64,000 bases of DNA from Podarcis pityusensis. Lineage: Eukaryota. The stretch lies in assembly GCA_964106645.2 (NCBI GenBank), contig OZ067049.1. One strand, written 5' to 3'. Shown here one piece after another: positions 1,184 to 61,000 of this stretch. The position numbers are program-made. Position 1 is the stretch's first letter. Each line of letters opens with the position of its first letter.

Positions 1184-4100
1184 CGACCCCCACCCCATCC
1201 CAGTCCGCACCCCCGGCTCTTCTCTCACTCAGCATTACCGCCCCCCTTCGCCAGTGCGGGCGAGGAGAAGCGAGGCTCTCCCCCTGCCAGTCTCCGGCCA
1301 CCTTCGCCATCACCCTTCCCATATTTCCCTAGGGCCTCGACCAAAAATTCAACCCAACGCTCCCATTCCATATCGGGGGGGAAAGAGAAAGAGAGAGAGA
1401 GTTAAATAAATTTACGAGGCTAGAACCCATTAATTGGGCAATAAAAAGTTTTATGAGACTCATTTACATACAATGCCACGGGCTTTCTGCGCAATGGCGC
1501 CGCTTGCTCTAATTAAAAGCAGGCAGGCAGGCAGGGCAGGCGCGCGCGCGCTCCTTGCGTGGAAGTTGCCCCCGCACCCGCGTGGAAGTTGCCATTCGCC
1601 TGCTTGGCAGCGCTTTCAATCCAACGCCCCCCCCCTCCGCCCGGCCTTCCCCGCCCGCATCTCGGTTTTGTCCCCCCCCCCCTTCCTTCCTTCCTTCCTT
1701 CCTTCCTCCCCCATACCTGAAGACCTCATCCAGGGGTATATCCGGAAATTACTCTCCGCCTGGCTGTGCAGGTTGCTGTCCTCCGCTTTGTCACAGCTGG
1801 GCTTGGTTAAGTCATTGCAAAGGACGGGAATGTTCTGATCAAAAGAGGAGCAATGCAGGTTGTAGGCATCGGAGCCCAGGCTGTATCCGGAAGAGAACGG
1901 GCTTTGATATATGGTGCTGTTCACGTTGTACAAGGCAGGCATGGAGGAGGTGAACGCGCTAGCGCCTGGTCCATAGCCGCTTCTCTGCGAGTTGGTAGCA
2001 AAGGAGCAAGACGTGGGCTCCGCATTTTGGAAGAGAGAAGCAGCCCCCGTCGTATATTTGCTAAAAAGAGCGTTCACATAATACGAAGAACTCATAATTT
2101 TGACCGGTGATTTGTGGTCCGGTAGGCTTCCGTGTCGGTTTTACGAGGTAGCGTGATATATGATAACATTACACCCCCAGATTTACACCAAACCCCATTT
2201 TCTTTTGGACTGAGCTGCCTCCACCACGTGACCAGTCATATGACCCCATCCTCCAATCTCCTCCTGCATCACAGGTGGTATAGATCAGGGTGGCTCACAA
2301 GGTCCTATGATGGAAGGGGAAGAGGATCGAGCCGACGCCTGGCCGATTCGAAGGCGAGGGGGAGACTTGGCCGCTCGGGCAGCTCCAACGGGGCCCGGGT
2401 TCCCGGAGCGACTCCGGATAAAGCCGAGGGAGCGCCGAGATCAGCCCCGAGGCAGAGGGAAGCTAGAATAAGAAACGTCAACCAGTGTTTTGAAATACAC
2501 ACTTTCCTCTTTGCATCTTTATCCTCTCTACCCCCATTCTCCTCGTCTTTTTTTTGTCTTTTAAGGGGAGGAAAAAGCGTTTCTGTTCTGCTCCTGCATA
2601 TACCCCACTCCTCAGTCATATTTCCTGCAGAGCTGGAAATAAACCACAAACACAACTCTGAGTTTCCATGTATGTTTCCTGTTTGTTTTTCTTGTTTCTT
2701 ATCTCTCTCCGCCTTTCAGCTCCTCCATATTCCGAAAGGGGAGGGGTAGAGCTGCGGGAGGGAAAGTACATTTAAAAAAAAAAAAAAAACAAAGGCAAGG
2801 TGCCCATAAAAATGCCCCCATAGTAAAAACAACCACCACCATTATGCAGGATGTGTTATCTGCGTCTGTCTATCTCAAGTGTGTGTGTGTGTGTCTGAAT
2901 GAACTCATTTGGCAAATCCTTCTGTATCCTGCTCTCATTTATTTTTCCTCAGGAAAGGAAAGAGTGAAATATTTATATGAGAGGCTTCCCAATTTGCTCG
3001 CAGATTTATTAAGATATTGACAGACATATTCGGCTAATCGCTGCTGGCGAGATGAGTGAAGGGTTGCTAAATACGTGTTCTATCTTCTCTCTCTCCCTCT
3101 TTTGCCAAATTCTCTTCCTCAGCAACAAAACACAAATAGAGAAAAAGAACAGTATATCTAAGGGAGGACGGGTGGGTATCTTTCCTAAAAAGAAAGGGGA
3201 GGAGAAGAAGAAGAGGAAGAGGAAGAAGAAGAAGACGAAGAAGAAGAAGAAAGATGAAGGCATGTGTCTACTTTTGCCTGTTCCTCTTACTCCAGGAAGG
3301 TTTATATCCAGGAGGGAGTTTTGTTTTGTTTTGTTTTTCGGTGATCATGCAGCCGGTCTGCCTTTACTAGTGCTGATTTCTTCTATCCATTAGCATGCAT
3401 ATTTCAGCCACCCCCCCCCAAAAAAAAATGATACAGTGGGAAATAAAATAAAAACAAACGGACTTTCAGCACCTCTTATTTTAAAAAAAAAAATCGAAGA
3501 GACTTGGGATGCGGACTCAGGTTTCTTTGTTTTATCCTAGCTTCTTCTTTTTCCTCCCCCGCCCCCGGGGTAAATAAATACCTACCTCTGGTTTTATGTG
3601 GTGGTGTTGGTGGTGTCGAGAGCGGTGGCATATGTGTGTATGTGTGTGTGTGTGTCCCAGATCTCGGATAAGGCAGCTCCTTAATTTCTAAACACTCGGC
3701 CCCCACCAAGCAATAAGAGGACACGCCATTGAGGATGTTGCGCCCTACCCTTCCTTTAAAACGGATCGTAAAACTAGTTTCCTTCCCTCAGACGGGGGAG
3801 TTTTGGTAAAGACAGCTTTTACTGCCCTGCTATATTGCACATCATAAACTGGAAGGAGGACAATGAGATTGCCCCGGAAATTCTCCCTTTAGATTATAGT
3901 GTTTGGTATCCTGTGTGTACAAAGAGGTTCTCACCAGTTTAAAATTATGCCTGGCCCATATTTCGCAGGGACACATTTTGGCAACCCAGGGGAGGGAAGG
4001 AGGGGGGGAGGGCTCAGCTAAGGGGCCTGAGGAGGCCCGGGTGCAACAGGGGCTGGAGAGAGGTGTTGGTGTACAGTTTTGGAAAGGAAGAACATTATTA

Positions 4101-58000: not shown

Positions 58001-61000
58001 GGTGATAGCCCAGGGCTGGTAGCCTTCCATGGGCAGCATCGAGTCGTGCCTGGGCTCCCCGGGGCCTCCGATGGTGGGCACCACGGGCATATCCAGGTAG
58101 CCCGGCACCGGCTGGTAGGGTCCGGCGGCGTAGCCCTGGTAGAAGGCGAATTCCTTGGCCCGGGAGGTGAAGTCCTCTCCGGCGGCGCCTACCGACGTGT
58201 CCATGTACTTGTCGGCGAAGGAGGCGGCGGGCTGCGCGCACGACTTGAGCGCGGCATTGTGGTGGCTCATGCGGCACGGGAAGTAGCCGCTGCCGAAGTA
58301 GCCGTAGGGCAGCGCGGCCGGCCCAGACGAGCTCTGCACGGCGGCCGAGCAGGGACTGCACTGCTTGACAGATGCCCCGGGCTCAGCCATGCCCGCGGCG
58401 GCGGCGGCGGGCGCCTCGCTCGACGTGTAGGCGGCGGCGCTGCCCGGGGCGGCGAGCGAGGCTGGGTGAGCCATCAGGTTCCGGCACTGGTTGGCCGCGG
58501 CGAAGTTGGTGCCTGCGGCCGCCGCCGCCGCCGCGTGGAAACCGGCTTCCATGTTCTTGTTGATCTCCTCCAGGCTGTTGTCGTAGAGGAACATGACGGG
58601 CTCGATCCAGCGGGGATGGAGGAGCACGGAGGCTGTCATAGCCCGATCCGCATTGAGACTAGTGGCTCTTTTTTAAAAGCCCCAAAGACTGAAAAAAGAG
58701 ATACTAAATCTCCCAGACTTGACCAGGGCTGACGCGCCAGTGTCGCGCCACCACGGCGCTCATTGGACCGCCCTCCCCCACGTGATATGCAAAGCAGCTG
58801 ATAAACATCTGAGGAATAAAGGGCAGATAATTAAATAATGGCCTAATCGCGCCACGGCTTGGAATGCCAGCGGCGGACGGCACTCGCGCGCGCGCGGCCG
58901 CCCCTTCCACTCACGACTTTGCGTGGCGAGGGAGGCGCCAACGCGGGTGCAAAGGAAGAGCAGGTATTTCGCCTCCCTCCCCACCCCCCGCTCTGCAAAG
59001 TGTGGATTTCTTCCCTCTCCCCCTCCCCCTCCACTCCCTCTAGCACATTGCCTCTAGGAAATTATTTCAACAGGCTCTCACTCCACGGTCTTAATGTCAA
59101 AGCCTTCTGACTTTCTGTATTTTTCTTGCTCATCAACTGGTGGTTGGTGGTGTGTGTGGTTTTTTTTGGTTTTGGTTTTTCCTGGGGAACGTCCCGCCCT
59201 CCCCTCCCCCTCCCTCACTAGACTTAAACTCGTATTTTCTCGTGTTATAGGACTGCAAACTGCTTGTACCATTACGAGGTCAAAACACCTCTTTCTAAAA
59301 CCACAACGCCTGTCAACGCCGGGTATTTCACATCTTCTCCTGACCTGTCCAGATACACACACACACACAAACAAACAAACAAACAAACATATATGTGCGT
59401 TTTGAATGATATCACTCCTCCTTTGGACAAATACATCTGAAAAAGAGGAGCAGGATCCAGAACGTAGACAGCAGATTTGCAACGGCAGGGTGTGGAAGAG
59501 AAAGAGTTAAGCAGACCTCAGAAATGAATCAGCCTCCCTGTATTATTTGTTATTGCAACAATAAAACGCGCAGCCTACAATTTTTTGCTTGAATCATCCC
59601 CGACCATAAAAATATTGCGTGGGATTATTTATTGTCTAAGAGTGACCATAGGGACTCCCCCCTTATCATCGTTAATAACAAACCCTTTGCACCGAAACGC
59701 TCTGCGTAAGCACATGCACCAACACGGAAAGCCATTATGTCAATAAAAGGGCACTTCTAAAAGGGCATTTTCTATTAATTATTAATTAATTAATTAATTA
59801 ATTAATAATTCATTGTTATTATCATTGGCACTCTATTACGAGTATATGTTATGCAGACACGACTGCTTAAGGATTTATATGCATCCTGCAAAATGCAAGT
59901 AGAAGTTAATTCATGGTAATATAATCACGCGAGAGAGTGGGGATTTGAGAGTTACTGACCTCCGACCACAATGAAGGGAGTAAACTTGTCTTTGTAAACA
60001 AAAGCAAAAGCAAGGAAAAACAAAACAAAACAAAAAACCCACCACACCCAAACCTCTGTCTGTTTGTTTGATGCACGCTTGACAGGTATTTATGAACTAT
60101 TGTGCGAGCGGTTGGGGCTTGCAACATTGTTTTCGCTGCAGTGCTACCAGGATGGAATTCTAAATCGTGCATTGTTTGGAGAGACTCCCAGTCCCTTGTA
60201 TGTAGGAAGGAACAGATCTGTCAGTTCGCTTGCCTGTCCCCCAGTCTGCCCTGCCCTGGCCCTTTTCGCTGAGAATGGCATGCGACAGAGGGGACTCTTG
60301 TCACCGGACAATATTTCAGCGAATTCTCTTAATTGTAACCAATAAAGGGCTCCTTTCCTCTCCAACCCCAGCCTCCTTCTCCTCCTGGATGGTCTTTTCC
60401 GCATTCCTCCTCATGGCCAAAGGCAAATATTTATTCCTGGCATATTTTCATATCCCCACCCACCACCCCGCTTTCCAGGCTTCAGCCGTTAGGAAAAATG
60501 TAGGCTTCGAAATCTTTCCATTATTTGGCAGGGAGGGGAGGGGAGGGGGAGCTTCCCTTCGCCTTCCCTTTCCTTTTGGGGAATCTCATTCTTTCAAAAC
60601 GCCTTGCAGCGGAGCCAAAACACAGCACACTCAGCCTTCCCCAACTCATTCAATTCATTAACCTACCCCAGCAAAAGGCTAACAGGGCAGCGCTCTTTTA
60701 GGGAGGGAGGGGAGACACGACTAGAGGCCAAGGTCAAGTTGAAAGCGGCAACCTAGCCAATGCCAGGATGGTCATTCAGAGCCGGAGGAGACTTGTCTGA
60801 TTTGCTACAAAGAAGAAGAAGAGGGGGGCAGCCAATTACTCCTTTCCAACCCCCCCCCCGTGTGTGTCCTTTTCGGCCTTTCTGTCTGTCACTTTCCAGA
60901 CAAACCCTTCCCTCTTCTGGTTACGGAGAACTTTGTGTGCAACTGTGGCTCTTTGAGGGTGAAGCACGATGCTAAACAAAAAAACAAACAAGCAAATAAA

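What the first reader, a model, noticed from the sequence alone, without database searches (positions are those of the whole stretch)
2092..58653. Cluster-wide pattern: all five HoxA genes carry a start-proximal uORF
Seen: HOXA7 (ATGA overlap), HOXA9 (MKSAVS*, about 60 nt upstream), HOXA10 (overlapping out-of-frame uORF starting 16 nt upstream), HOXA11 (stop 4 nt upstream) and HOXA13 (ATGA overlap). Established: translational control through Hox 5' leaders has been proposed (IRES/TIE model, uORF-based inhibition for Hoxa3 and Hoxa11) and is disputed. Inference: a simple uORF/reinitiation layer spanning the posterior cluster could uncouple Hox mRNA from protein domains, and may depend on reinitiation factors (DENR/MCTS1, eIF2D).
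Basis: partly seen in the sequence, partly recalled or inferred. Interest (0 to 1): 0.75.

Follow-up and report, generated by a model that had tools for sequence, protein, structure and literature searches.

The report
Upstream start codons before HoxA genes
All five posterior HoxA genes in this window do have a small upstream reading frame near their start codon, but two of these are already-published conserved Hox uORFs and the other three are no more than chance would give.

Summary
As a cluster-wide pattern it is not above chance: 1116 of 1774 mock starts in the same window have such a uATG within 85 nt, so five of five has a probability of about 0.1. The HOXA9 and HOXA11 uORFs match, in codon number (7 and 12), in -3/+4 context and in position inside the mouse CAGE-defined leaders, the conserved inhibitory uORFs of Ivanov et al. 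2022 (PMC8892498). That survey covered all 39 Hox genes and did not list Hoxa7, Hoxa10 or Hoxa13. The published mechanism is leaky scanning tuned by eIF1/eIF5 stringency, not DENR/MCTS1 reinitiation. None of the uORFs here ends on a codon reported as DENR-dependent. Whether the A7, A10 and A13 uATGs lie in the mRNAs could not be tested. Verdict: real sequence features, core already known, cluster-wide extension unsupported.

The parts
2092..2169 (-). HOXA7 uORF2: 25 aa, uATG at -74 (G at -3, T at +4). Its TGA overlaps the main ATG (ATGA).
2169..2198 (-). HOXA7 uORF1: 9 aa, uATG at -103 in strong context (A at -3, G at +4). Its TAA overlaps the uORF2 ATG (TAATG).
   Evidence: a relay of this kind is seen at 7 of 420 ATGA mock starts
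1616..2095 (-). HOXA7 exon-1 open frame, main ATG at 2095. No Pfam family matched. The gene name rests on its place in the cluster and on my reading of the N-terminus.
12629..12649 (-). HOXA9 uORF MKSAVS*: 7 codons with the stop, uATG at -81 (T at -3, A at +4), 60 nt spacer to the main ATG. By codon count and context it corresponds to the published conserved Hoxa9 uORF.
   Evidence: Ivanov 2022 section 6
11930..12568 (-). HOXA9 exon-1 open frame (Pfam Hox9_act, E 1.8e-72), main ATG at 12568
23585..23899 (-). HOXA10 out-of-frame overlapping ORF: 104 aa, uATG at -16 (A at -3, T at +4), ending 299 nt inside the CDS
22813..23883 (-). HOXA10 exon-1 open frame, main ATG at 23883. No Pfam family matched. 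A second in-frame Met lies at codon 19.
38228..38263 (-). HOXA11 u[14 protein letters not shown]: 12 codons with the stop, uATG with A at -3 and T at +4. By codon count and context it corresponds to the published conserved Hoxa11 uORF.
   Evidence: Ivanov 2022 section 6
38218..38247 (-). Three in-frame HOXA11 ATGs: 38247 (C at -3, C at +4; would add MRRARGSL), 38223 (weak context) and 38220 (A at -3, G at +4; the MDFDER start)
58636..58653 (-). HOXA13 uORF MRIGL*: uATG at -14 (T at -3, C at +4). Its TGA overlaps the main ATG (ATGA).
57908..58639 (-). HOXA13 exon-1 open frame (Pfam HoxA13_N, E 4.2e-33), main ATG at 58639
2225..2230 (.). E-box CACGTG 135 nt upstream of the HOXA7 ATG. Likely a promoter element, so it bounds the leader on the 5' side.
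   Evidence: E-box promoter function in mouse Hoxa7/a9/a11: Akirtava 2022 passages
38372..38377 (.). E-box CACGTG 157 nt upstream of the HOXA11 ATG
58779..58784 (.). E-box CACGTG 145 nt upstream of the HOXA13 ATG, followed by a GC box (-134) and a CCAAT (-127)
12714..12718 (-). CCAAT box 150 nt upstream of the HOXA9 ATG. That is about 65 nt upstream of where the mouse TSS (-83/-85) would fall.
   Evidence: mouse promoter elements: Akirtava preprint Fig. S8 legend
23947..23951 (-). Inverted CCAAT 68 nt upstream of the HOXA10 ATG. With the HOXA9 spacing, a TSS would fall near the main ATG, downstream of the uATG (inference).

Best explanation
The 'pattern' is a composite of two kinds of feature.

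(i) The HOXA9 and HOXA11 uORFs are the orthologues of the already-described, deeply conserved inhibitory Hox uORFs. They sit in short capped leaders and start at uAUGs in suboptimal context. A fraction of scanning 43S complexes initiates there and is lost or delayed. Most complexes pass by leaky scanning to the main AUG. The uORFs therefore damp translation modestly and make output sensitive to start-codon stringency (the eIF1/eIF5 balance). This much is shown in the literature for mouse and human. The transfer to this animal is inferred.

(ii) The HOXA7, HOXA10 and HOXA13 uATGs occur at the density expected of any sequence of this composition. They have no published conservation or ribosome occupancy, and they may or may not lie in the mRNAs. 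They are most likely neutral or lineage-specific. If transcribed they would be simple inhibitory uORFs. The HOXA10 one could only be bypassed by leaky scanning.

There is no evidence for a common reinitiation layer across the cluster.
For: Sequence:
- All five uORFs are present.
- The HOXA9 uORF has 7 codons with T at -3 and A at +4. The HOXA11 uORF has 12 codons with A at -3 and T at +4.

Position:
- -81 lies inside the 83-85 nt mouse Hoxa9 leader.
- -43 lies inside the 53-91 nt Hoxa11 leader. Akirtava 2022 passages also give 83 nt and about 90 nt.

Function in reporters:
- Changing the uAUG to AAA derepresses more than 2-fold for Hoxa11 and 1.2-fold (not significant) for Hoxa9.
- eIF1 overexpression derepresses. 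eIF5 overexpression represses (section 7).

Background:
- 1116 of 1774 mock starts have such a uATG within 85 nt.
- The five 120-nt stretches hold 8 ATGs against 9.4 expected.
- The survey of all 39 Hox leaders does not list a7, a10 or a13.
- 6800 of 9266 expressed mouse transcripts carry a uORF sequence (PMC11790910 figure legend).
- Four literature searches for a uORF or uAUG of Hoxa7, a10 or a13 found no such report.
Against: - I could not align the window with any other vertebrate. The identity of the A9 and A11 uORFs with the published ones rests on codon count, context and position only.
- Neutral sequence may be the wrong null. Real short 5' leaders are generally depleted of AUGs (recalled, not tested here). 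If all five uATGs are transcribed, five of five could be an excess.
- Both genes whose CDS starts with ATGA (2 of 2) have an ATGA-overlap uORF, against 73 of 422 mock ATGA starts. That is about 0.03, post hoc.
- The HOXA7 relay of two stop-start overlaps is seen at only 7 of 420 mock starts.
- Ivanov's criterion was presence in at least 90% of placental mammals, so it would miss lineage-specific uORFs. The authors themselves say other Hox genes carry non-conserved uORFs.
Confidence: 0.7

Rival explanations
1. All five uORFs are transcribed and translated. Together they form one reinitiation-dependent layer (DENR/MCTS1, eIF2D) that uncouples posterior Hox mRNA domains from protein domains.
For: - All five uATGs exist close to the start codons.
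- HOXA9 has a 60-nt spacer, which is favourable for reinitiation.
- A7 and A13 have ATGA stop-start overlaps, 2 of 2 ATGA starts against 73 of 422 in the background.
- eIF2D has been implicated for Hoxa3 (Alghoul 2021 abstract; confirmed in cells in PMC11790910).
Against: - The frequency equals background.
- a7, a10 and a13 are absent from the 39-gene survey.
- The HOXA10 frame ends 299 nt inside the CDS, so reinitiation at the main ATG is excluded.
- The A11 spacer is 4-7 nt and the A7 and A13 spacers are nil, leaving no room to re-acquire ternary complex. This follows from established knowledge of reinitiation.
- 0 of the 5 terminating uORFs end on ATG, CTG or GCG, the codons named as DENR-dependent.
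- For Hoxa3, eIF2D acts in inhibition, not in reinitiation.
Confidence: 0.08
2. Promoter reading. The stretches holding the uATGs are mainly core-promoter or TSS-proximal DNA. Several uATGs lie outside the mRNA or within a few nt of the cap, so they hardly act in translation. Any conservation would then reflect DNA-level elements.
For: - E-boxes (CACGTG) lie at -135, -157 and -145 of A7, A11 and A13. These are 3 of only 9 sites in 64 kb.
- CCAAT lies at -150 (A9) and -127 (A13). An inverted CCAAT lies at -68 (A10) and -162 (A7).
- With the A9 spacing (CCAAT to mouse TSS about 65 nt), the A10 TSS would fall near -3, downstream of its uATG.
- A TATA-like TTTAAAA at -38 of A13 would put a TSS near -8, also downstream of its uATG (inference).
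- The A9 uATG at -81 would be only 2-4 nt from the cap of an 83-85 nt leader. That fits the weak 1.2-fold effect.
- The long 'leaders' of Hoxa genes were shown to be promoters.
Against: - Ribosome footprints are reported on the mouse Hoxa9 and Hoxa11 uORFs, and the Hoxa11 uAUG mutation derepresses more than 2-fold.
- The mouse Hoxa7 leader of about 112 nt would include both A7 uATGs if the spacing is kept.
- TSS positions in this animal are inferred from motifs only.
Confidence: 0.15
3. Lineage-specific regulation. The A7, A10 and A13 uORFs are functional in this animal's lineage although they are not conserved in placental mammals. They would add species-specific damping of posterior Hox translation.
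For: - Ivanov 2022's discussion states that several further Hox genes have non-conserved uORFs with suboptimal uAUGs, which could give species-specific regulation.
- Paralogues Hoxc10/Hoxd10 and Hoxc13 are on the conserved list.
Against: - There is no excess over background.
- About 0.9 of random ATGs would also be 'suboptimal' by that definition (my estimate).
- There are no data from this species.
Confidence: 0.15

Closest known systems
Conserved inhibitory Hox uORFs acting as start-codon stringency sensors (Ivanov et al. 2022, PNAS, PMC8892498)
   Same: The HOXA9 uORF has 7 codons and a poor uAUG context. The HOXA11 uORF has 12 codons with A at -3 and no G at +4. Both lie within the leader lengths mapped by CAGE in mouse.
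   Different: That work lists 13 of 39 Hox genes and does not list Hoxa7, Hoxa10 or Hoxa13. The window adds uATGs at those three genes, but without any evidence of transcription, conservation or occupancy.
eIF5 mRNA leader uORFs and the eIF1 poor-context AUG (the eIF1/eIF5 stringency paradigm)
   Same: Suboptimal uAUGs whose use rises when stringency falls, lowering main-ORF output.
   Different: There is no autoregulatory loop here, and the effects are modest (1.2- to 2.5-fold).
Hoxa11 TIE: start-stop plus stable stem-loop (Alghoul et al. 2021, eLife, PMC8172242)
   Same: Both are uAUG-based inhibition of Hoxa11 translation.
   Different: The TIE element is a start-stop at nt 84-89 of a long, disputed leader, followed by a GC-rich hairpin, and it is species-specific. 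In the window the only start-stop within 1300 nt upstream of HOXA11 is at -1054, and no strong hairpin lies in -700..-90. The start-proximal uORF is a separate element.
DENR/MCTS1-dependent reinitiation uORFs (ATF4, a-Raf, CDK4; Bohlen et al. 2020, PMC7494916)
   Same: Short uORFs upstream of a regulator's main ORF.
   Different: DENR dependence is tied to the last sense codons ATG, CTG and GCG. The window's uORFs end on GTG, TTA, TCA, AGG and CTA. No Hox gene is mentioned in that paper's main text.
Stop-start overlap (AUGA/UAAUG) termination-reinitiation, as known from some viral bicistronic mRNAs (recalled)
   Same: HOXA7 and HOXA13 have ATGA overlaps. HOXA7 also has a TAATG overlap.
   Different: No accessory element (such as 18S-complementary sequence) was looked for. 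The overlap follows whenever codon 2 begins with A and an upstream ATG in that frame meets no stop, which happens at 73 of 422 mock starts.

Membership tests
Conserved Hox uORF (Ivanov 2022) | AUG-initiated uORF of the reported length (Hoxa9 7 codons, Hoxa11 12 codons) | tested here: met
   HOXA9 7 codons and HOXA11 12 codons, both including the stop, against section 6 of the paper
Conserved Hox uORF (Ivanov 2022) | uAUG in the reported suboptimal context (a9: no purine at -3 and no G at +4; a11: A at -3 and no G at +4) | tested here: met
   a9 has T at -3 and A at +4. a11 has A at -3 and T at +4.
Conserved Hox uORF (Ivanov 2022) | uORF lies inside the CAGE-defined leader | tested here: inconclusive
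   -81 and -43 fall inside the mouse leaders of 83-85 and 53-91 nt. The TSSs of this animal are unknown and were only guessed from E-box, CCAAT and TATA-like motifs.
Conserved Hox uORF (Ivanov 2022) | Present in at least 90% of placental mammals, with ribosome footprints | not testable with these tools
   No vertebrate sequence collection or Ribo-seq data are on hand, and the SI figures and tables are closed. For Hoxa7, a10 and a13 the paper's main text has 0 mentions.
DENR/MCTS1-dependent reinitiation uORF | Start-stop, or a last sense codon of the DENR-dependent class (ATG, CTG, GCG named) | tested here: not met
   Last sense codons are GTG, TTA, TCA, AGG and CTA. The A10 frame ends on CAA inside the CDS.
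DENR/MCTS1-dependent reinitiation uORF | Main-ORF translation efficiency falls on DENR or MCTS1 loss | not testable with these tools
   This needs Ribo-seq or reporters. A search for DENR together with Hoxa terms found no such report (listing).
Hoxa11 TIE (start-stop + stem-loop) | AUG immediately followed by a stop, about 20 nt upstream of a very stable hairpin | tested here: not met
   The only start-stop within 1300 nt upstream of HOXA11 is at -1054. The best 70-nt hairpins in -700..-90 reach only -23.8 kcal/mol.
Posterior HoxA cluster (gene identity) | Paralogue-specific N-terminal domains and homeobox exons in cluster order on one strand | tested here: met
   Pfam Hox9_act, DUF3528 (Hox11 N-terminus), HoxA13_N and Homeodomain, all searched exon by exon. 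There are five homeobox frames on the minus strand, mir-196 between A9 and A10, and HOXA11-AS regions. A7 and A10 exon 1 matched no family.

The most novel reading that the evidence does not exclude
The stop-start overlaps are not accidents. In this reading HOXA7 carries a relay: a strong-context 9-aa uORF, TAATG, a 25-aa uORF, then ATGA into the CDS. HOXA13 carries a 5-aa uORF with an ATGA overlap. Both would couple main-ORF initiation to termination of the uORF, so that Hox protein output depends on post-termination 40S retention and not on leaky scanning. If this were conserved in vertebrates and transcribed, it would be a second, mechanistically distinct class of Hox leader control beside the known stringency-sensing uORFs.
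Probability: 0.07. Interest if true: 0.55.

Novelty: already known. Interest (0 to 1): 0.25.

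Why it matters
How Hox mRNAs are translated is under active dispute: the IRES/TIE model against short capped leaders. The parts of this finding that hold up, the HOXA9 and HOXA11 uORFs, support the short-leader and uORF view. By my reading of the proteins the contig is not mammalian, so they also show the two uORFs with unchanged codon number and context outside mammals. That agrees with the published claim of conservation from mammals to fish. The claimed extension to all five posterior genes would matter if true, because it would add a shared translational layer on collinear Hox expression. 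The evidence here does not lift it above chance.

Tried and rejected
- Folding of the five putative leaders. The z-scores were -0.01, -1.79, +1.39, -0.36 and -1.69, so none stands out. I dropped the idea of a shared structured element.
- Search for a TIE-like start-stop plus hairpin upstream of HOXA11. None was found near the gene.
- Rfam scan of the window. It found only mir-196 and three HOXA11-AS regions, and no leader element.
- Literature searches for a uORF or uAUG of Hoxa13, Hoxa10 or Hoxa7. No relevant report was found. Two hits I opened (PMC6627321, and a 2026 preprint) were irrelevant.
- Xue et al. 2015, the source of the IRES/TIE model, is not held. What I say of it comes from the papers that cite it.
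- Cross-species conservation stayed unchecked. The collections on hand are bacterial, archaeal, phage, plasmid or E. coli. Supplements (Ivanov SI Tables S1-S2 and Figs S3-S5) were closed.
- A matched control on real CAGE-defined leaders of developmental transcription factors could not be run.
Protein-family searches were done exon by exon.
- The N run at 421-552 was left as it is.
- Complex prediction, structure prediction and the protein atlas were not used because they do not bear on the question.

Full report
WHAT THE WINDOW IS

The window carries the posterior HoxA cluster on the minus strand.
- Exon-1 open frames start at 2095 (HOXA7), 12568 (HOXA9), 23883 (HOXA10), 38247/38223/38220 (HOXA11) and 58639 (HOXA13).
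- Pfam, searched exon by exon, gives Hox9_act for the A9 frame, DUF3528 (the Hox11 N-terminus) for A11, HoxA13_N for A13, and Homeodomain for the A9 and A13 second exons. The A7 and A10 first exons matched no family.
- Five homeobox frames lie on the minus strand in cluster order.
- mir-196 lies between A9 and A10, and three HOXA11-AS conserved regions lie on the plus strand upstream of A11.
- The N run at 421-552 was left alone.
- I take the contig for non-human. The exon-1 translations differ at many positions from the human HOXA proteins as I recall them. This is recollection, not a tool test.

THE OBSERVATION

- HOXA7: uATG at -74 (2169), 25 aa, with its TGA overlapping the main ATG.
- HOXA9: uATG at -81 (12649), MKSAVS*, stop 60 nt before the ATG.
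- HOXA10: uATG at -16 (23899), out of frame, 104 aa, ending 299 nt into the CDS.
- HOXA11: uATG at 38263, [11 protein letters not shown]. The TAG ends 4 nt before the ATG at 38223 and 7 nt before the ATG at 38220. The latter has the strong context (A at -3, G at +4) and gives the MDFDER start.
- HOXA13: uATG at -14 (58653), MRIGL*, with its TGA overlapping the main ATG.

- An in-frame ATG at 38247 in HOXA11, in poor context, would extend the protein by MRRARGSL and is not a uORF.
- A further HOXA7 uORF at -103 (9 aa, A at -3, G at +4) has a TAA that overlaps the -74 ATG.
- The long HOXA10 frame is a stop-poor alternative frame of the Gly-rich repeat.

IS IT MORE THAN CHANCE?

No, when measured against the window itself.
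- Of 1813 ATGs taken as mock starts, 1297 (0.715) have another ATG within 85 nt upstream. Of 20000 random positions, 0.695 do.
- Counting only uORF-type uATGs, 1116 of 1774 mock starts (0.629) have one within 85 nt. For 1088 of 1774 (0.613) the uORF ends within 60 nt of the start or overlaps it. Five of five then has a probability of about 0.09-0.10 (my arithmetic).
- Shuffling each real 85-nt stretch gives at least one ATG with probability 0.71-0.85.
- The five 120-nt stretches hold 8 ATGs against 9.4 expected.

Two details are rarer, but both are post hoc.
- Both genes that start with ATGA have an ATGA-overlap uORF, against 73 of 422 mock ATGA starts.
- The HOXA7 relay of two stop-start overlaps occurs at 7 of 420.

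One caveat remains. Neutral sequence may be too lenient a null, because real short leaders tend to be depleted of AUGs (recalled). I could not run the matched control on real leaders. One published figure legend gives 6800 of 9266 expressed mouse transcripts with a uORF sequence, whatever the leader length (PMC11790910).

WHAT IS KNOWN

Ivanov et al. 2022 (PMC8892498) is the key paper. I read the abstract and sections 5, 6, 7, 9 and 12, but not the supplements.
- They found 13 genes with conserved uORFs. Hoxa1, a9, a11, b9, c4, c8 and c9 are conserved from mammals to fish. Hoxa6, c10, d10 and d11 are conserved to tetrapods. Hoxc13 and d1 are conserved in mammals only.
- The Hoxa9 and Hoxa11 leaders are 83-85 nt and 53-91 nt, and the uORFs are 7 and 12 codons.
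- The Hoxa9 uAUG lacks both a purine at -3 and a G at +4. The Hoxa11 uAUG has A at -3 but no G at +4.
- Aggregate Ribo-seq shows footprints on both uORFs.

The window's HOXA9 and HOXA11 uORFs have exactly these codon numbers and contexts, and they fall inside those leader lengths. I therefore identify them with the published elements, short of an alignment, which I could not make.

In reporters, removing the uAUG derepressed Hoxa11 more than 2-fold and Hoxa9 1.2-fold (not significant). eIF1 overexpression derepressed and eIF5 repressed.

Hoxa7, Hoxa10 and Hoxa13 have no mention in the main text. The authors note only that other Hox genes have non-conserved uORFs. Four searches for a uORF or uAUG of these three genes found no report.

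ARE THE uATGs IN THE mRNAs?

This is unknown for this animal.
- In mouse, the long leaders of Xue et al. are disputed. Akirtava et al. 2022 (PMC9456764, passages) give about 112 nt for Hoxa7, 83 nt for Hoxa9 and about 90 nt for Hoxa11, and show that the longer 'leaders' act as E-box-dependent promoters.
- A manual annotation paper also finds shorter 5' UTRs for Hoxa4, a7 and a11, and a slightly shorter one for a13 (PMC4584094, passage).
- The dispute continues (PMC12048685 and PMC13060157, passages).

In the window, CACGTG occurs 9 times in 64 kb. Three of these sites lie 135, 157 and 145 nt upstream of the A7, A11 and A13 ATGs. CCAAT lies at -150 (A9) and -127 (A13), and an inverted CCAAT lies at -68 (A10) and -162 (A7). 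The mouse Hoxa9 promoter has the same E-box, CAAT and TATA-like order ahead of the TSS and the conserved uORF (Akirtava preprint, Fig. S8 legend).

What follows is inference only. With the A9 spacing of about 65 nt from CCAAT to TSS:
- the A9 uATG would sit 2-4 nt from the cap, which fits its weak effect;
- the A13 TSS would fall near -62, so the uATG would be inside the mRNA, unless the TATA-like TTTAAAA at -38 sets a TSS near -8;
- the A10 TSS would fall near the main ATG, so the uATG would be outside the mRNA, unless the TATATAAAA at -154 is used.

MECHANISM

For A9 and A11 I commit to the published mechanism. A minority of scanning complexes initiates at a weak-context uAUG, the rest leak through, and output follows eIF1/eIF5 stringency.

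The reinitiation idea fits poorly.
- The A10 frame ends inside the CDS.
- The spacers are 4-7 nt (A11) or nil (A7, A13).
- Only A9, with 6 aa and a 60-nt spacer, has a layout that favours reinitiation. This rests on established knowledge of the effects of uORF length and spacer length.

DENR dependence has been tied to the last sense codons ATG, CTG and GCG, with most codons giving none (Bohlen et al. 2020, PMC7494916, passages). The window's uORFs end on GTG, TTA, TCA, AGG and CTA. The eIF2D link reported for Hoxa3 concerns inhibition, not reinitiation.

The Hoxa11 TIE start-stop of Alghoul et al. (PMC8172242, abstract and passages) is a different, species-specific element. I found no counterpart near HOXA11. 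Folding of the five putative leaders showed nothing unusual, with z-scores from -1.79 to +1.39.

VERDICT

The sequence features are real. The biologically supported core, the HOXA9 and HOXA11 uORFs, is already published. The extension to a five-gene layer is not above chance and has no support in the one survey that looked at all Hox genes. The DENR/MCTS1 inference is not supported by uORF layout or terminal codons.

What stays open is whether the A7, A10 and A13 uATGs are transcribed and conserved. That needs TSS mapping, alignments and Ribo-seq, none of which I could run.

Noticed in passing
window 2225-2230, 38372-38377, 58779-58784: Three of the window's nine CACGTG E-boxes lie 135, 157 and 145 nt upstream of the HOXA7, HOXA11 and HOXA13 start codons. 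The HOXA11 one sits in a longer palindrome, GGTCACGTGACC. This matches the E-box promoter elements reported for mouse Hoxa7, a9 and a11. An E-box before HOXA13 is not mentioned in the passages I saw.
   Followed up: partly
window 38245-38247 (minus strand): An in-frame ATG lies 27 nt upstream of the strong-context HOXA11 start, inside the uORF region, with no stop before the CDS. It would add MRRARGSL to the protein. Its context is poor, with C at -3 and C at +4.
   Followed up: partly
window 12529-12653 (minus strand): The HOXA9 uORF is itself an imperfect palindrome: its ATGAAAT pairs with its GTTTCAT. Between its stop and the main ATG lies a (GGGGCT)3-like G-rich repeat that pairs with an upstream C/U-rich stretch in the predicted fold (-37.7 kcal/mol, z -1.79, 15 of 200 shuffles fold as well).
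   Followed up: partly
window 2169-2198 (minus strand): HOXA7 has a 9-aa uORF in strong Kozak context. Its TAA overlaps the ATG of the next uORF (TAATG), and that uORF in turn overlaps the CDS start (ATGA). This makes a two-step stop-start relay, seen at 7 of 420 mock ATGA starts.
   Followed up: partly
window 18096-18174 (minus strand): A mir-196 precursor (Rfam RF00256, 77.7 bits) lies between HOXA9 and HOXA10, as expected for mir-196b.
   Followed up: no
window 38984-39174, 40306-40535, 41332-41543 (plus strand): HOXA11-AS1 conserved regions 2, 4 and 5 (Rfam) lie antisense and upstream of HOXA11. Regions 1, 3 and 6, and the HOTTIP and HOTAIRM1 families, did not reach threshold.
   Followed up: no
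window about 24035-24075 (minus strand; -190 to -150 of HOXA10): A (CA)n microsatellite runs straight into a TATATAAAA box about 154 nt upstream of the HOXA10 ATG. This is a possible alternative promoter that would put the -16 uATG inside the mRNA.
   Followed up: no
window 15-557 (minus strand) and the N run at 421-552: The open frame holding the HOXA7 homeobox exon (15-557) includes the 132-base N run. I left it unfilled, so the 5' end of that exon cannot be read here.
   Followed up: no
window 23585-23899 (minus strand): The 104-aa frame overlapping the HOXA10 start is Arg-rich, because it is the +1 reading of the poly-Gly coding repeat. Its length therefore says nothing about function.
   Followed up: no
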